From an uncultured Algoriphagus sp. (GTDB lineage: Bacteria; Bacteroidota; Bacteroidia; Cytophagales; Cyclobacteriaceae): a DNA stretch of 64,000 nucleotides. Both the position numbers and the translations under genes were made by a program. Location: assembly GCA_965651895.1 (NCBI GenBank), contig CBFGUY010000002.1, positions 2,411 to 66,410 on the forward strand. Direction: 5' to 3'. Shown here in pieces: positions 48,376 through 53,413 of the stretch (positions are counted from its first letter, which is position 1; every line of letters begins with the position of its first letter). Under the pieces are notes generated by a model that worked only from the letters and a program-made list of their open reading frames with translations, was not told the DNA's origin and made no database searches.

Positions 48376-49140
48376 CTAAAAAGAATTTGAAAGGGGCAGA
48401 GTAATTTGTCCCTTTTTCTTTAGCACAAACTTTTTTTCCTTGGGATGAAGCATCTCTAAATCGTTTTTCAACTCTTCGTCTTCGTTGTAAAAGTCAGTGC
48501 TAGTGGTAAAATACGCTACGGTAAAAGTCATGTTATTCTCACTAAAAACCCATGGATGAAGCTGGAATTCACCAGTAGGCAACTTGGTTAAGAGGATTTT
48601 TCCATTTCCTGTTATTGAATCGATTTCTATGGGGGCTATGTGATTTTCGAAGTCATTTTGACATAAGGCAAGTGAAAGATCATCACAGAATCTCAGGAAT
48701 TCGTAGCACAGAGCTACTTGATCTTTGTCTAGCTGCAGGTTTGCTAAAATCACGTCGCAGTCAGCAGCCATTTTCTCTAAAAACCTCTGTACTTCCAGTT
48801 CCTTGTCATCCTTATATAGTTTTTGAAAATGCTTAGAAACCATTAACACTATGAAGCTTGACTTGTATTTGGCGCTTTTAGCCACTCCTTTGGCCTGATT
48901 TAGATCTACTTTTTCGCGCTGTCTATAATCCAACGGGGCTCCTGAAGCCGTTAGATTTTCCCTCTGATGCCATTTAGGTTGATTATTGTCATGCTCTCCT
49001 ATACTTGCCAATCCTGCAGCCCAGTATTTCTGTATAGGCCATAACTTTGGGTCTAAATTCAGACCAATGTCCATCGCCAATAATGCGTGTGATTTATGAA
49101 AAATAATTTCCCAACCCTTATCCTTTGGAGTAACTATCAT
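48376..49140 (-). CDS. DUF3891 family protein
   Basis: MIV....GWEII....HALLA and IGEHD (HD-like) motifs; last gene of the sbnA-like operon. Confidence 0.75.
   Translation of the reverse strand: MIVTPKDKGWEIIFHKSHALLAMDIGLNLDPKLWPIQKYWAAGLASIGEHDNNQPKWHQRENLTASGAPLDYRQREKVDLNQAKGVAKSAKYKSSFIVLMVSKHFQKLYKDDKELEVQRFLEKMAADCDVILANLQLDKDQVALCYEFLRFCDDLSLALCQNDFENHIAPIEIDSITGNGKILLTKLPTGEFQLHPWVFSENNMTFTVAYFTTSTDFYNEDEELKNDLEMLHPKEKKFVLKKKGQITLPLSNSF
48390..48415. terminator. Hairpin terminator between susD and the convergent DUF3891 gene
   Basis: AAAGGGGCAGA-GTAA-TTTGTCCCTTT followed by a T-tract on the + strand. Confidence 0.7.
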
Positions 49141-49152
49141 TTTGCAAGAGTT

Positions 49153-50586
49153 TTAAAGATTTTCATCATTTTGAAAATGTGCTATTTCAATTTTGCCATT
49201 TTCAGTTGTCCTGTTCCAAATCAGATTGGTAGCTAAAGGAAACAGATGGGCACTTGACTCGAAGAAGTGCATCATGTACCCAGCCGTATTGACGAATACT
49301 ACCATATCGCCGACTTCTGGGAGTTTTGGAAGTGATATTTTTCGTTTCAATAAGACATCACGTTCCAAACAATAGGCTCCTGTGAAAAACACATCCACAG
49401 GTTCTGCTTCATCCTTATCTTGGTATAACACGAAGGGGTCTAGAAGGAAATCAGCACTGCCGCTTAGCATTTGTGTCATGTTCATCTCCAGTCCTACCAG
49501 CCAATCTCCGGCGGAATCACGTTTTCTAAATGCTACCCGAGCTACAGTCATTCCCACTTGATCCAACATGGATCTACCTGGCTCCATTCTGATTTCTATA
49601 GCTAGAGAGGAGGCTAATTCAGCTACTGTTTCTTGGGTTTGAATGGTATGGGCGAGGATCTGTTTGAGAAATTGCCCTTTAGATAGGTTATTCCAAAAAG
49701 GGTAGGTTTTTAACTCCCCATACAAATCACCGGCACATACCTCCAGTCCCAATCCATCATTGTTGTATGTAATCGGTTCTACTTTACCTAGCACTGCTTT
49801 GCGGATGGTTTGGTTGAAATAGTCCCATTCGCTTTCATGCGCTAGGTAATTCATTAGGAAGCCCCCACCTATATCTATGAATTCTGTTTTCAAGCCTTTT
49901 TTTAAAAGCAATTGGGTAAATGCGAGGCATTGGGCCAGTGCATACCCCCGTTCCTCAGTAGAATAACCATTGAGGTGAAAATGTAATCCTTTGTATTGGA
50001 GTAGATTGTATCGTTCTGACTCTAAGAAGTTTTTCGAAACGAACCTATCTATGTCCAGTAAATCAAACCCAAATCTGCTGTTCAGCTTTTTCTCTTTCAG
50101 AAAAAAACCGCTGAGACGAAAACCTATTTTAACCTTTTTATTAACGCTGGTAGCCATTTCCTGGACTAGATTACATTCATCCTCATTATCTAAAATGAGG
50201 ACACTGCCGTTAAGAATCGCTTTTTCCACTAGTTGCCTCGTTTTCACAGCGGCAGTTATGATCAGATCCGTAGGGTTTATTCCCATGTCTATACACTGTA
50301 TGTATTCTTGGTAACTAGCGGTATCTATACCCATGCCCAGCTCATGCGCTTTATGAACTACTGCTTTGGTTTTATTGGCTTTTCGGGCAAAAAAAATCTT
50401 GGAGCTAAGGCCCAGCTCTTCAAACACTTGATGGAATGGGCGAAAATTTGCCTCCATTGCTTCAGTATAGTGGATATTAACAGGCGAGCCATGTTTTTCC
50501 AATAGCTGATGGAGCACGGAAGTTTCTTTCATAAGGTCATGCATCCAGGGCGAAGTAATGGGAGTCAAAGAAGGTAGATGTGCCAT
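49153..50586 (-). CDS. Y4yA-type fold-III PLP enzyme (DAP/ornithine decarboxylase superfamily)
   Basis: FFARKANK (PLP Lys), DTAS..E, SRFG, GLHFH, DIGGG, EPGR, CLERD, AGY. ATG at 50586. Confidence 0.85.
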   Translation of the reverse strand: MAHLPSLTPITSPWMHDLMKETSVLHQLLEKHGSPVNIHYTEAMEANFRPFHQVFEELGLSSKIFFARKANKTKAVVHKAHELGMGIDTASYQEYIQCIDMGINPTDLIITAAVKTRQLVEKAILNGSVLILDNEDECNLVQEMATSVNKKVKIGFRLSGFFLKEKKLNSRFGFDLLDIDRFVSKNFLESERYNLLQYKGLHFHLNGYSTEERGYALAQCLAFTQLLLKKGLKTEFIDIGGGFLMNYLAHESEWDYFNQTIRKAVLGKVEPITYNNDGLGLEVCAGDLYGELKTYPFWNNLSKGQFLKQILAHTIQTQETVAELASSLAIEIRMEPGRSMLDQVGMTVARVAFRKRDSAGDWLVGLEMNMTQMLSGSADFLLDPFVLYQDKDEAEPVDVFFTGAYCLERDVLLKRKISLPKLPEVGDMVVFVNTAGYMMHFFESSAHLFPLATNLIWNRTTENGKIEIAHFQNDENL

Positions 50587-52416: not shown

Positions 52417-52426
52417 ACTTGGGGGA

Positions 52427-53413
52427 TTAAACTAGTACGTTTTCAAGTGAGGAGATAATATTCTCTTTTACCCATTCCTCATTGTAAATTGTATCTAAAT
52501 ATCGTTCACCATTATCACATAAGATCATCGCAATAGTGACTCCGACCGGTAGGTCTGATGCTATTTTTTGTACTGCATAAGTCACAGCTCCAGATGAACC
52601 TCCGCATAAAATCGCTTCCCTATGTAGCAGACGGTGACACCCATCCACGCATTCCTCCTCATTGATATGGATTACATCATGTATGGATTTTTTGTCCAGA
52701 AATTGGGATTTTCTCCCTGCACCATGCCCGGGAATGTTTCGTTTTCCTGCAGGAGAATCGAAAATGACGCTTCCCACCGCATCCACAGCAATCACCTTAG
52801 TGTTCAGGTGGTTCTTATCTATATAATCGGCGCATCCCATCAGCGTGCCGCAGGTGCTTGTGGCAGCTAAAAGATAATCTGGGGCAAAGCCTAATCCCTT
52901 TACGATTTCATGCATAGTTTGCCTATGCGTAGCAGGGTTTTGGGGATTTCCATATTGATTTGTCCAGAAACACCGTGGGTTGGAATTTAAGATTTCTTGG
53001 ACTTTATCCAGTCTGGCTTTCAAATAGCCCCCTTCTTTACAAGGTGTGGTTACATGATGGACTGTGGCTCCGTGGGCTTTTATGATTTTTACGTTTTGGG
53101 AGTTGACCATCGGATCCACTACCACTTCCAGGTTGAGATCAAAATAATTGCATACTTGTGCTAAACCAATGGCCATGTTCCCAGAGCTAGACTCCACCAC
53201 AGTATCTCCCTTTTTTAGCTTTCCTGATTCCATGGCATGGGTGATTAACCGTAATGCAGTGCGGTCCTTGATGCTGCCCCCGGGATTAAAAGCCTCTAAT
53301 TTTGCAAAAATCTTCTGCTTGAGTTCCGGATATAGTTTAGTTAGCCTTACAAGTGGAGTATGTCCTATGGTGTCCAGAATTCTGGAACAACAAGGCTGAT
53401 AAGGGTTGGTCAT
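52427..53413 (-). CDS. sbnA: SbnA-like PLP-dependent beta-replacement enzyme (cysteine synthase family)
   Basis: NPGGSIKDR (PLP Lys), ESSSGNMAIG, GGYLKARL, NQYGNPQN, STCGT, PGHGAGR; SbnA-type rather than CysK-type signature. Confidence 0.8.
   Translation of the reverse strand: MTNPYQPCCSRILDTIGHTPLVRLTKLYPELKQKIFAKLEAFNPGGSIKDRTALRLITHAMESGKLKKGDTVVESSSGNMAIGLAQVCNYFDLNLEVVVDPMVNSQNVKIIKAHGATVHHVTTPCKEGGYLKARLDKVQEILNSNPRCFWTNQYGNPQNPATHRQTMHEIVKGLGFAPDYLLAATSTCGTLMGCADYIDKNHLNTKVIAVDAVGSVIFDSPAGKRNIPGHGAGRKSQFLDKKSIHDVIHINEEECVDGCHRLLHREAILCGGSSGAVTYAVQKIASDLPVGVTIAMILCDNGERYLDTIYNEEWVKENIISSLENVLV

What the first reader, a model, noticed from the sequence alone, without database searches (positions are those of the whole stretch)
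48376..53413. Stand-alone four-gene amino-acid-modifying operon: SbnA-like synthase, CreE-like flavoenzyme, fold-III PLP decarboxylase and DUF3891, with no SbnB, CreD or synthetase
Seen: four co-oriented genes separated by only 10, 12 and 12 bp. Established: SbnA condenses O-phospho-L-serine with L-glutamate to ACEGA; SbnB (ornithine cyclodeaminase family) normally cleaves ACEGA to L-2,3-diaminopropionate; staphyloferrin B also needs NIS synthetases and the SbnH decarboxylase. Here the SbnA-type signatures (GGYLKAR, NQY, STCG, GAGR) are kept, but no SbnB, NIS or NRPS gene is in the window. The position next to sbnA is filled by an N-oxygenase-like flavoprotein. Inference: a compact pathway making a small N-oxidised or N-substituted diamine or amino acid (beta-replacement, N-oxidation, decarboxylation), with DUF3891 as an HD-like tailoring or hydrolase enzyme. 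Its location among general-stress genes suggests a stress protectant or signal rather than a classical siderophore. I know of no assigned product for this combination.
Basis: partly seen in the sequence, partly recalled or inferred. Interest (0 to 1): 0.85.

Follow-up and report, generated by a model that had tools for sequence, protein, structure and literature searches.

The report
Orphan phosphoserine-amine N-oxygenase-decarboxylase cassette
The four genes are real, but the conserved unit is a three-enzyme cassette found in many bacterial phyla, with an unknown fourth gene attached in some lineages; it probably turns phosphoserine into a small N-oxygenated diamine-type molecule whose identity and role are unknown.

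Summary
Four co-oriented minus-strand genes lie 10, 12 and 12 bp apart, and the quoted SbnA signatures are present.

The conserved unit is a trio. An SbnA-family PLP enzyme keeps the O-phosphoserine-binding residues. It is followed by a flavin N-monooxygenase with the FzmM/CreE fold, then a Y4yA-family fold-III PLP decarboxylase. All 80 species-level loci fetched carry the three genes in this order on one strand; one lacks SbnA at a contig end. They span at least six phyla, five loci have SbnA fused to the flavoenzyme, and the trio also sits on plasmids.

No SbnB was found in this genome or in five complete genomes that carry the trio. This genome also lacks NIS synthetase and NRPS condensation domains.

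The flavoenzyme keeps the catalytic core but lacks the aspartate-binding residues, so it is not an aspartate N-hydroxylase.

DUF3891 is a facultative partner (9 of 80 loci, two arrangements). It has invariant H/HD/H/D residues but no HD-domain or PDB fold match.

Recurrent neighbours are general-stress-type genes, not transporters or synthetases.

Most likely product: a small N-oxygenated 1,2-diaminoethane-type amine, still unidentified. I found no paper describing the cassette. This scan had already noted it in Brachybacterium and Corynebacterium.

The parts
53446..53460 (-). Conserved upstream element AGGTGCAGTTTTAGT, about 33 nt before the sbnA-like ATG. It may be part of the promoter or leader.
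   Evidence: AGGTTCGRTTTTAGT-like motifs lie 37-84 nt upstream of the SbnA-like gene in 8 fetched loci titled Algoriphagus, and in no other fetched locus. This is the best match in the window. The motif is not enriched genome-wide: 8 matches against 28 for the reversed control. Its function is not known.
52427..53413 (-). SbnA-family PLP-dependent beta-replacement enzyme (O-phosphoserine-dependent N-(2-amino-2-carboxyethyl)-amine synthase), 328 aa.
   Evidence: TIGR03945 401.6 bits against a cut-off of 349.95. S. aureus SbnA 5d84 matches at E 3e-76, with 40.6% identity over 313 residues. PLP Lys47 aligns with K49, and the OPS-binding Arg132/Tyr152/Ser185 align with R134/Y154/S186. The gene is present and first in order in 79 of 80 loci.
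50599..52416 (-). Class B flavin-dependent N-monooxygenase with the FzmM/CreE fold and a substrate pocket not built for aspartate, 605 aa.
   Evidence: PF13454. The only PDB sequence hit is the Asp N-hydroxylase 8cp2, E 4.6e-27 over the full length. The AF2 model (pLDDT 88.2) matches 8cp2 at TM 0.82, and the next matches are ornithine, putrescine and cadaverine N-hydroxylases. The FAD and NADPH motifs and the Asn62 equivalent (N73) are invariant, but R276, R412, N413 and R416 are replaced in 120 homologues. It is fused to SbnA in five loci and in several database proteins.
49153..50592 (-). Y4yA-family fold-III PLP decarboxylase, 479 aa from the TTG or 477 aa from the ATG at 50586.
   Evidence: PF02784. 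It scores only 109 bits on lysA against a cut-off of 297.9. NCBI names its homologues 'Y4yA family PLP-dependent enzyme'. The invariant catalytic set is K71, H204/H206, G242-G244, E337-R340, C408 and Y439, shared with NGR234 Y4yA. The gene is present and third in order in 80 of 80 loci.
48376..49140 (-). DUF3891 protein, 254 aa. It is a facultative fourth gene and possibly a metal-binding protein of unknown fold.
   Evidence: PF13030 E 4e-39. It is adjacent to the trio in 9 of 80 loci. It lies downstream of Y4yA in Algoriphagus. It lies upstream of SbnA in Aquimarina L073/L088 and in the Cytophagales MAG L102, where the two genes overlap by 4 bp. It stands alone among stress genes in A. terrigena and A. 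jejuensis. Invariant residues are H18, H50-D51, H104, C152-D153 and C160. The AF2 model has pLDDT 90.5 but no PDB match (best E 0.34). No member gives a Pfam HD hit.

Best explanation
The locus carries a self-contained, horizontally mobile three-enzyme cassette, plus a lineage-specific fourth gene. The cassette makes a small N-oxygenated aminoethyl-amine from O-phosphoserine.

Step 1 (family and phosphoserine use shown; nucleophile inferred). The SbnA-family enzyme forms the PLP-aminoacrylate from O-phospho-L-serine and adds an amine nucleophile, most likely L-glutamate as in SbnA. The product is an ACEGA-type N-(2-amino-2-carboxyethyl) secondary amine.

Step 2 (enzyme class shown; substrate inferred). 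The NADPH/O2-dependent class B flavin monooxygenase is often fused to the step 1 enzyme. It N-hydroxylates an amine of that product. No SbnB exists in these genomes. A second oxidation to a nitrone followed by hydrolysis could therefore both cleave the adduct, releasing 2-oxoglutarate, and leave an N-hydroxy group on the 2,3-diaminopropionate skeleton.

Step 3 (catalytic competence shown; substrate inferred). The Y4yA-family fold-III PLP decarboxylase removes the alpha-carboxylate. This gives an (N-hydroxy-)1,2-diaminoethane-type product.

DUF3891 is an optional tailoring, salvage or protective partner, possibly metal-dependent. The cassette is embedded among general-stress-type genes and lacks synthetase or exporter partners. 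This points to an intracellular stress-related metabolite rather than a classical siderophore.
For: Trio conservation. SbnA, flavoenzyme and Y4yA lie colinear on one strand in all 80 species-level loci; one lacks SbnA at a contig end. The loci come from Bacteroidota, Balneolota, Chloroflexota, Acidobacteriota, Verrucomicrobiota and Pseudomonadota. The trio is also in Kiritimatiellota and on Sulfitobacter and Tsukamurella plasmids.

Fusions. SbnA-flavoenzyme fusions of 933-968 aa tie steps 1 and 2 together.

SbnA membership. The score is above the curated cut-off and the OPS residues are kept.

No SbnB. None scores above the cut-off in the own genome or in five complete trio-bearing genomes; the best hit is 57 bits against 327.

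Flavoenzyme. The fold matches the Asp N-hydroxylase at TM 0.82. Most of the next structural relatives are amine N-hydroxylases (SidA, KtzI, PvdA, putrescine and cadaverine hydroxylases). The catalytic core is invariant and the Asp-binding arginines are lost.

Decarboxylase. All fold-III catalytic motifs are invariant.

Neighbours. No conserved fourth gene exists. Recurrent neighbours are DUF2383, DUF421, SDR and AI-2E transporter genes, with catalase in some loci.
Against: No substrate or product was measured, and every substrate assignment is inference. The nucleophile of the SbnA-like enzyme is unknown. The trio SbnAs form their own clade apart from S. aureus SbnA. A monooxygenase-driven cleavage of ACEGA has no precedent that I know of. 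The order of steps 2 and 3 is not established. The stress link rests only on gene neighbourhood. TonB-dependent receptor genes lie next to the trio in Algoriphagus, Pricia and Gracilimonas, with an ECF sigma/FecR pair in the last. That would fit a secreted chelator.
Confidence: 0.45

Rival explanations
1. The flavoenzyme simply replaces SbnB. It cleaves ACEGA oxidatively to plain L-2,3-diaminopropionate and 2-oxoglutarate. Y4yA then decarboxylates Dap to 1,2-diaminoethane, a short polyamine-like diamine with no N-O group.
For: SbnB is absent from six of six genomes tested. In other Y4yA modules the third enzyme is a secondary-amine oxidoreductase: ornithine cyclodeaminase/SbnB-like on an Agrobacterium pTi, and octopine/nopaline dehydrogenase family on pNGR234a. 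This suggests interchangeable enzymes in that slot. SbnH in staphyloferrin B makes a diaminoethane unit (established knowledge).
Against: The enzyme has the fold and core residues of NADPH/O2 N-hydroxylases, not of a dehydrogenase or oxidase. Spending NADPH and O2 only to remove an alkyl group is costly. The SbnA partners in the rhizobial and Agrobacterium modules are a different, far-removed clade that scores 236-244 bits against the 350 cut-off. The analogy is therefore loose.
Confidence: 0.2
2. The flavoenzyme acts first and makes the nucleophile, an N-hydroxy amine or N-hydroxy amino acid. The SbnA-like enzyme alkylates it with the aminoacrylate from phosphoserine, on N or O as DcsD does with hydroxyurea. 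The decarboxylase trims the product to an aminoethyl-hydroxylamine or aminooxy compound.
For: The characterised close relatives hydroxylate free amino acids or diamines. Cysteine-synthase-fold enzymes accept hydroxylamine-type nucleophiles; O-ureidoserine synthase 3x43 is among the PDB hits. A fusion of the two enzymes fits either order.
Against: The gene order SbnA, flavoenzyme, decarboxylase is invariant. An earlier scan note reports flavoenzyme-decarboxylase fusions (not tested here). Both fit the flavoenzyme acting in the middle. The SbnA score above the equivalog cut-off favours the canonical glutamate nucleophile.
Confidence: 0.15
3. A sulfur route. The SbnA-like enzyme makes cysteine or cysteate from phosphoserine. 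The decarboxylase and an S-oxygenating flavoenzyme then yield cysteamine, hypotaurine or taurine as an osmolyte or antioxidant.
For: Class B flavin monooxygenases also oxygenate sulfur (established knowledge). The stress-gene context would suit an osmolyte or antioxidant. The rhizobial homologue Y4xP is described in a review as encoding a cysteine synthase.
Against: The protein scores above the SbnA cut-off and far below the cysteine synthase and cysteate synthase cut-offs: cysK 220 against 351, CapA 156 against 600. The genome has a separate ordinary CysK-like gene. Fold-III decarboxylases act on amino acids that carry a distal amino or amino-acid group (established knowledge).
Confidence: 0.07
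4. The trio supplies a building block for a secreted metal chelator. The remaining assembly and uptake genes lie elsewhere, or are the neighbouring TonB-dependent receptor genes.
For: SusC/SusD or TonB-dependent receptor genes flank the trio in Algoriphagus, Pricia and Gracilimonas, with an ECF sigma/FecR pair in the last. Y4yA relatives sit in NIS-type clusters (pNGR234a) and in metal-regulated plasmid loci (Mycobacterium, with ArsR, MFS and MATE genes).
Against: SusC homologues are adjacent in only 6 of 80 loci. The own genome has no IucA/IucC and no NRPS condensation domain. I saw no Fur- or Zur-type box, and the only conserved upstream motif is confined to Algoriphagus and is not a regulon motif. 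No exporter is conserved.
Confidence: 0.08

Closest known systems
Staphyloferrin B precursor module of Staphylococcus aureus (SbnA, SbnB, SbnH)
   Same: It has an SbnA-family O-phosphoserine-dependent synthase (40.6% identical, OPS residues kept) and a fold-III PLP decarboxylase that would create a 1,2-diaminoethane unit.
   Different: No SbnB is present; a class B flavin monooxygenase takes its place. There are no NIS synthetases or citrate-handling genes. The decarboxylase is a Y4yA-family protein, not SbnH. The cassette stands alone among stress-type genes.
L-aspartate N-hydroxylases CreE/FzmM/AlaI (PDB 8cp2), which make nitrosuccinate for nitrite release by CreD
   Same: It has the same three-domain fold (TM 0.82), the FAD and NADPH motifs and the catalytic Asn. 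The family can carry out repeated N-oxidations.
   Different: Identity is only 21%. The aspartate-binding residues R276, R412, N413 and R416 are replaced (D/S/E/N in the window protein, variable across the family). One of these is Glu at the position where the N413E mutation abolishes Asp hydroxylation. No conserved lyase gene sits beside the trio; CreD itself was not searched for.
L-alanosine gene cluster of Streptomyces alanosinicus (AlaA/AlaB, AlaD, AlaI/AlaJ)
   Same: It combines SbnA-type Dap synthesis with flavin-dependent N-hydroxylation of the Dap skeleton and a CreE homologue (bioRxiv 10.1101/763607).
   Different: Alanosine synthesis uses SbnB, carrier-protein tethering (A domain, PCP, TE), a nitrosuccinate lyase and N-N bond formation. 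It has no decarboxylase. None of those extra genes accompanies the trio.
Y4yA modules of rhizobial and Agrobacterium plasmids (pNGR234a y4yB-y4yA-y4xP-y4xO-y4xN-y4xM)
   Same: A Y4yA-family decarboxylase sits next to a cysteine-synthase-fold enzyme and an oxidoreductase that probably handles a secondary amine.
   Different: The partner synthase is a distant clade that scores below the SbnA cut-off. The oxidoreductase is an opine dehydrogenase or ornithine cyclodeaminase family protein. NIS synthetase and MFS genes, or phosphonate genes, are attached. The function of these modules is also unknown.
D-cycloserine pathway enzyme DcsD (O-ureido-L-serine synthase)
   Same: A cysteine-synthase-fold enzyme couples an N-oxygenated nucleophile to a serine-derived aminoacrylate.
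   Different: DcsD uses O-acetylserine and hydroxyurea. The N-hydroxylation there is by a haem protein acting on arginine. That pathway has no decarboxylase.

Membership tests
SbnA family (TIGR03945, N-(2-amino-2-carboxyethyl)-L-glutamate synthase) | Score above the curated equivalog cut-off | tested here: met
   401.6 bits against a cut-off of 349.95. The own-genome search finds only this gene above the cut-off.
SbnA family (TIGR03945, N-(2-amino-2-carboxyethyl)-L-glutamate synthase) | PLP lysine and the O-phosphoserine-selecting residues Arg132, Tyr152 and Ser185 | tested here: met
   K49, R134, Y154 and S186 align with K47, R132, Y152 and S185 of 5d84. The role of the three OPS residues is as cited in PMC12414870.
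SbnA family (TIGR03945, N-(2-amino-2-carboxyethyl)-L-glutamate synthase) | Works with an SbnB partner that cleaves ACEGA to L-Dap | tested here: not met
   No PF02423 hit in the own genome. No TIGR03944 hit above 57 bits (cut-off 327) in five complete trio-bearing genomes. No such gene is adjacent in the 80 loci.
SbnA family (TIGR03945, N-(2-amino-2-carboxyethyl)-L-glutamate synthase) | L-glutamate as the nucleophile (ACEGA formation) | not testable with these tools
   This needs an enzyme assay. The trio SbnAs form a clade separate from S. aureus SbnA (97/95 support).
CreE/FzmM L-aspartate N-hydroxylases | Three-domain class B monooxygenase fold with FAD and NADPH motifs and the catalytic Asn | tested here: met
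   Foldseek TM 0.82, E 3.6e-42 to 8cp2. The GxGxxG motifs and N73 (Asn62 equivalent) are invariant in 120 homologues.
CreE/FzmM L-aspartate N-hydroxylases | Arginine cluster and Asn413 that bind L-aspartate | tested here: not met
   R276 is D, R412 is S, N413 is E and R416 is N in the window protein. These positions are not conserved as Arg or Asn across the family. R13 is an invariant Lys.
CreE/FzmM L-aspartate N-hydroxylases | Nitrosuccinate lyase (CreD) partner | tested here: not met
   No conserved extra gene accompanies the trio in 80 loci. I did not run a genome-wide search for CreD, because it belongs to a ubiquitous lyase family.
Fold-III PLP decarboxylases, Y4yA subfamily | Catalytic motifs: PLP Lys, HxH, GGG, EPGR, active-site Cys, C-terminal GY | tested here: met
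   K71, H204/H206, G242-244, E337-R340, C408 and G438-Y439 are invariant in 82 sequences, including NGR234 Y4yA.
Fold-III PLP decarboxylases, Y4yA subfamily | Relationship to the archetype Y4yA of pNGR234a | tested here: met
   tblastn gives 26% identity over 93% of the length, E 5e-39. NCBI names the close homologues 'Y4yA family'.
Diaminopimelate decarboxylase (lysA, TIGR01048) | Score above the curated cut-off | tested here: not met
   109.1 bits against 297.9.
NIS or NRPS siderophore cluster | IucA/IucC synthetase or NRPS condensation domain in the genome | tested here: not met
   No PF04183 or PF00668 hit in the own genome, which is 91.6% complete.
HD-domain metal-dependent hydrolases (proposed for DUF3891) | Recognisable HD fold or profile match | tested here: not met
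   None of 19 members gives a Pfam HD hit at E up to 5. The AF2 model (pLDDT 90.5) has no PDB match; the best is E 0.34 with TM 0.21 or less.
HD-domain metal-dependent hydrolases (proposed for DUF3891) | H...HD...H...D metal-ligand pattern | tested here: inconclusive
   H18, H50-D51, H104 and D153 are invariant, as are C152 and C160. I could not check whether they cluster in space.

The most novel reading that the evidence does not exclude
The cassette encodes an undescribed way of processing the SbnA adduct. A flavin N-monooxygenase oxidises the secondary amine to a nitrone. Hydrolysis of the nitrone both replaces SbnB and installs an N-hydroxy group. After decarboxylation this yields a new N-hydroxy-diaminoethane-type metabolite that marine Bacteroidota and others use in stress or dormancy physiology. 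DUF3891 would be a new-fold metalloenzyme that tailors or recycles it.
Probability: 0.3. Interest if true: 0.78.

Novelty: new variant of a known kind. Interest (0 to 1): 0.7.

Why it matters
The trio is a compact, mobile and strictly conserved three-enzyme pathway present in at least seven phyla. The flavoenzyme family has 432 clusters at 50% identity with E of 1e-30 or better, yet I found no assigned product and no paper. Solving it would do four things. It would give a function to the Y4yA family, which includes long-enigmatic genes in the rhizobial type III secretion locus. It would define a second substrate class for the CreE/FzmM monooxygenase fold. It could reveal an SbnB-independent fate of the SbnA adduct. 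It could add a new small nitrogen metabolite to the stress physiology of marine bacteria. The whole pathway is about 4.3 kb, so it can be tested directly by expression in E. coli.

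Tried and rejected
Literature. 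Full-text searches for DUF3891 (0 papers), SbnA with flavin and decarboxylase terms and Y4yA/y4xP found nothing on the cassette. The Y4yA hits were only reviews calling the rhizobial genes enigmatic. Searches on ethylenediamine/SbnB and on the EDDS aes genes were also unproductive.

RNA elements. An Rfam scan of 48000-55000 at E up to 1 found nothing.

Promoter and terminator scan. The counts did not exceed shuffled controls, and the consensus does not fit Bacteroidota promoters.

Upstream motif as a regulon marker: rejected. The genome has fewer matches than the reversed control.

SusC/SusD as a conserved partner: rejected. Homologues are adjacent in only 6 of 80 loci, mostly Algoriphagus synteny.

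DUF3891 as a mere synteny accident: rejected. It recurs in a second arrangement in Aquimarina and a Cytophagales MAG.

DUF3891 as a core pathway member: rejected. It is absent from 71 of 80 loci and stands alone in other Algoriphagus genomes.

Cysteate synthase CapA for sulfonolipids: rejected. The score is 156 bits against a cut-off of 600.

ParB-N proteins (y4yB) of the rhizobial modules as serine kinases: not testable, since they give no Pfam hit.

Full report
**Observation**

The window carries four minus-strand ORFs: 53413..52427 (328 aa), 52416..50599 (605 aa), 50592..49153 (479 aa) and 49140..48376 (254 aa). The gaps are 10 bp, 12 bp (6 bp if the TTG two codons upstream of the ATG is used) and 12 bp. 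Base composition is unremarkable across the block.

Pfam and NCBIfam assign the proteins as follows:
- The first is PALP/TIGR03945 PLP_SbnA_fam, 401.6 bits against a curated cut-off of 349.95.
- The second is PF13454 NAD_binding_9.
- The third is PF02784/PF00278, a fold-III decarboxylase. Its best equivalog is lysA at 109 bits against a cut-off of 298, so it is not a diaminopimelate decarboxylase.
- The fourth is PF13030 DUF3891.

**The organism and what is missing**

Close homologues are all from Algoriphagus (Cyclobacteriaceae, Bacteroidota). The assembly is 5.07 Mb, in 569 contigs, and 91.6% complete. It has no ornithine cyclodeaminase/SbnB family gene, no IucA/IucC gene and no NRPS condensation domain. 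It has one SbnA-family gene and a separate ordinary CysK-like gene.

Five complete genomes that carry the same genes were also searched for SbnB: Algoriphagus halophytocola, three Maribacter strains and Aquimarina sp. W85. None has an SbnB-family protein. The best hit is 57 bits against a cut-off of 327. The SbnA-like enzyme is therefore not explained by a Dap or siderophore pathway elsewhere in the genome.

**The conserved unit is a trio**

Neighbourhoods of flavoprotein homologues from seven distant taxa all showed PALP, NAD_binding_9 and Orn_Arg_deC_N in that order. DUF3891 appeared only in Algoriphagus.

A scan of one genome per species with a flavoprotein profile found 338 loci, of which 80 were fetched. 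My ORF and BLAST analysis of those 80 loci gave these results:
- The decarboxylase is in 80 of 80 loci.
- The SbnA-like gene is in 79 of 80 loci; the exception is cut by a contig end.
- The order is always SbnA, flavoprotein, decarboxylase, on one strand.
- In five loci (Mesonia ×3, Salegentibacter, Zunongwangia) SbnA and the flavoprotein are one polypeptide.

Further fusions of 933-968 aa appear in the protein databases.

The 80 loci come from Bacteroidota, Balneolota, Chloroflexota, Acidobacteriota, Verrucomicrobiota and Pseudomonadota. A Kiritimatiellota contig, Sulfitobacter plasmids, a Chondrinema plasmid and a Tsukamurella plasmid also carry the trio. In Tsukamurella the flavoprotein gene is only partly annotated.

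The trio is rare and patchy. At most 4 of 401 evenly sampled Bacteroidota genomes match, only 2 of them with a full-length match, and none of four other sampled genomes of the same genus. The SbnA tree mixes orders and phyla. It behaves as a mobile accessory cassette.

**Enzyme 1**

The first protein matches S. aureus SbnA (5d84) at E 3e-76, with 40.6% identity over 313 residues. The PLP lysine is kept. So are Arg132, Tyr152 and Ser185, which PMC12414870 (citing Kobylarz et al.) names as responsible for selective O-phospho-L-serine binding; they align with R134, Y154 and S186.

SbnA-like proteins of the Sulfitobacter and Tsukamurella trios score 358 and 344 bits on TIGR03945. The cysteine-synthase-like partners of Y4yA in rhizobia, Agrobacterium and Mycobacterium score only 236-251 bits and form a remote clade.

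Use of phosphoserine is well supported. The nucleophile (glutamate in SbnA) is inferred.

**Enzyme 2**

The only PDB sequence match is the L-aspartate N-hydroxylase of Streptomyces sp. V2 (8cp2), at E 4.6e-27 over the full length. An AlphaFold2 model (pLDDT 88.2) superposes on 8cp2 at TM 0.82. Most of the next matches are amine N-hydroxylases: SidA, KtzI, PvdA, putrescine N-hydroxylase and DesB/DfoA.

The paper on that structure names the residues that bind aspartate and sulfate: Arg13, Arg266, Arg276, Arg409, Arg412, Asn413, Arg416 and Arg577. It also shows that the N413E mutation abolishes hydroxylation.

I aligned 120 family members with 8cp2:
- The FAD and NADPH glycine motifs and the catalytic Asn62 equivalent are invariant.
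- Arg13 is an invariant Lys.
- Arg266 and Arg409 are mostly kept.
- Arg276, Arg412, Asn413 and Arg416 are replaced. They are D, S, E and N in the window protein and vary across the family.

The protein is thus a class B NADPH/O2 N-monooxygenase with a less basic pocket. It is CreE-like in fold but is not an aspartate N-hydroxylase.

Against 1.84 billion representative proteins, the family has 432 clusters with E of 1e-30 or better.

**Enzyme 3**

NCBI names the homologues 'Y4yA family PLP-dependent enzyme'. The archetype is y4yA of Sinorhizobium fredii NGR234.

All fold-III catalytic motifs are invariant in 82 aligned sequences that include the archetype: K71, H204/H206, GGG 242-244, EPGR 337-340, C408 and GY 438-439.

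Y4yA-family genes elsewhere sit beside a cysteine-synthase-fold gene and an oxidoreductase that varies:
- On pNGR234a the neighbours are an octopine/nopaline dehydrogenase family gene, an IucA/IucC gene and an MFS gene, inside the type III secretion locus. A review calls the role of these genes enigmatic.
- On an Agrobacterium pTi the neighbours are an ornithine cyclodeaminase-like gene and phosphonate genes.

The recurring logic is this. The synthase attaches a 2-amino-2-carboxyethyl group to a nitrogen. The decarboxylase turns that group into an aminoethyl group, as SbnH does in staphyloferrin B. An oxidoreductase handles the secondary amine.

**DUF3891**

DUF3891 is adjacent to the trio in 9 of 80 loci, in two arrangements. 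It lies downstream of the decarboxylase in six Algoriphagus loci, as in the window. It lies directly upstream of SbnA in two Aquimarina species and in a Cytophagales MAG, where the two genes overlap by 4 bp and the protein is only about 30% identical to the window's.

DUF3891 occurs in only 16 of 401 sampled Bacteroidota genomes. Two independent recruitments therefore argue for a functional link.

Against core membership, A. terrigena and A. jejuensis have DUF3891 alone among CsbD, DUF892, CinA, Ku/LigD and MscS genes, and 71 trio loci lack it. It is a facultative partner.

The family has invariant H18, H50-D51, H104, C152-D153 and C160. This resembles an HD-type ligand pattern. However, no member hits a Pfam HD model. 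A confident AF2 model (pLDDT 90.5, pTM 0.87) has no PDB fold match, the best being E 0.34. 'HD-like' is therefore not supported. A metal site in an unrecognised fold remains possible.

**Context**

Clustering all ORFs within 10 kb of the 80 trios found no conserved fourth gene. The most recurrent neighbours outside single-genus synteny are:
- a DUF2383-like four-helix protein;
- DUF421 membrane proteins, which lie directly downstream in five loci from four named genera and one unclassified Bacteroidia MAG;
- a YdaD-like SDR;
- an AI-2E family transporter.

Catalase, a ribosome hibernation factor, a glyoxalase and MscL appear in individual loci.

In the window the flanks are SurE, a YegS-type lipid kinase, a GSDH-like dehydrogenase, an AI-2E transporter, an SDR and a SusC/SusD pair.

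TonB-dependent receptor genes are adjacent in Algoriphagus, Pricia and Gracilimonas. SusC homologues occur in only 6 of 80 loci.

No riboswitch was found. A 15-nt motif upstream of the operon (53446-53460) is conserved in eight fetched loci titled Algoriphagus, but it does not mark a regulon.

**Mechanism**

Shown:
- a phosphoserine-using SbnA-family enzyme;
- a class B N-monooxygenase whose pocket is not built for aspartate;
- a catalytically intact fold-III decarboxylase;
- strict colinearity of the three genes, with fusions of the first two;
- absence of SbnB.

Inferred: the synthase makes an ACEGA-type adduct. The monooxygenase N-hydroxylates it. A second oxidation to a nitrone followed by hydrolysis would release 2-oxoglutarate and N-hydroxy-Dap, which would explain how the pathway works without SbnB. 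The decarboxylase then gives an N-hydroxy-1,2-diaminoethane-type product.

I put this scheme at about 0.45. The rivals are:
- plain SbnB replacement giving diaminoethane, 0.2;
- the monooxygenase making an N-hydroxy nucleophile that the synthase alkylates, 0.15;
- a precursor for a chelator, 0.08;
- a sulfur route, 0.07.

**Novelty**

I found no publication on the cassette, on DUF3891 or on the function of Y4yA. This scan had already noted the same cassette in a Brachybacterium island and, with a flavoenzyme-decarboxylase fusion, in Corynebacterium. Those reports reached a similar reading. I confirmed the wide conservation independently but did not test the second kind of fusion.

All three enzyme families are known. 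What is new is the combination, with a flavin N-monooxygenase in the place of SbnB. I class it as a new variant of a known kind.

Noticed in passing
L020 (pNGR234a 87333-94378): The enigmatic y4yB-y4yA-y4xP-y4xO-y4xN-y4xM block in the rhizobial type III secretion locus encodes a ParB-N protein, a Y4yA decarboxylase, a cysteine-synthase-fold enzyme, an opine dehydrogenase family protein, an IucA/IucC synthetase and an MFS transporter. This is the enzyme set one would expect for an ethylenediamine-containing, opine-type carboxylate siderophore such as rhizobactin. That reading is my inference and is not tested.
   Followed up: partly
L021 (Agrobacterium pTi Tul003, CP048488.1 54661-69950): A Y4yA decarboxylase, an ornithine cyclodeaminase-like gene, a cysteine-synthase-fold gene and a ParB-N gene sit directly after phosphonate genes: PEP mutase, an aminotransferase, a cytidylyltransferase and a CDP-alcohol phosphatidyltransferase. 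This may be a phosphonate product with a Dap or aminoethyl part.
   Followed up: no
window 53446-53460 (-); L026, L028, L030-L032, L035, L036, L042: A conserved AGGTTCGRTTTTAGT-like element lies 37-84 nt upstream of the SbnA-like gene, only in fetched loci titled Algoriphagus. It is not enriched elsewhere in the genome. It may be a promoter or leader element.
   Followed up: partly
window 48376-49140 (-): The DUF3891 AlphaFold2 model is confident (pLDDT 90.5, pTM 0.87): six helices followed by a C-terminal beta domain. It has no match in the PDB (best Foldseek E 0.34), so the fold may not yet be represented by a solved structure.
   Followed up: partly
L027, L029, L034 (about 200 nt upstream of the SbnA-like gene): In three Algoriphagus loci the gene directly upstream of the trio ends in a cysteine-rich repeat (C-x-x-x-C type, ...NCQNCAASCNKCIEELKHVMA). 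It looks like a small Cys-rich four-helix metal-binding protein.
   Followed up: no
L007/L008 13343-13597: In an Acidobacteriota contig an 84-aa MtN3/PQ-loop (semiSWEET-like) gene directly follows the decarboxylase. It is a candidate exporter or importer for the product. The trio there sits among transposase and restriction-modification genes.
   Followed up: no
L048 (Thalassovita sp. MAG): The trio of this alphaproteobacterial MAG nests inside the Bacteroidota clade, next to Roseivirga, in the SbnA tree. This reflects either recent horizontal transfer or a binning error.
   Followed up: no
window 43806-48368; L005, L009, L011, L028, L032: A SusC/SusD pair converges on the cassette in several Algoriphagus genomes. 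A SusC/SusD/MFS set lies next to the trio in Pricia, and an ECF sigma/FecR/TonB-receptor set in Gracilimonas. Adjacency is not general (6 of 80 loci) but could mean uptake of the product in some lineages.
   Followed up: partly
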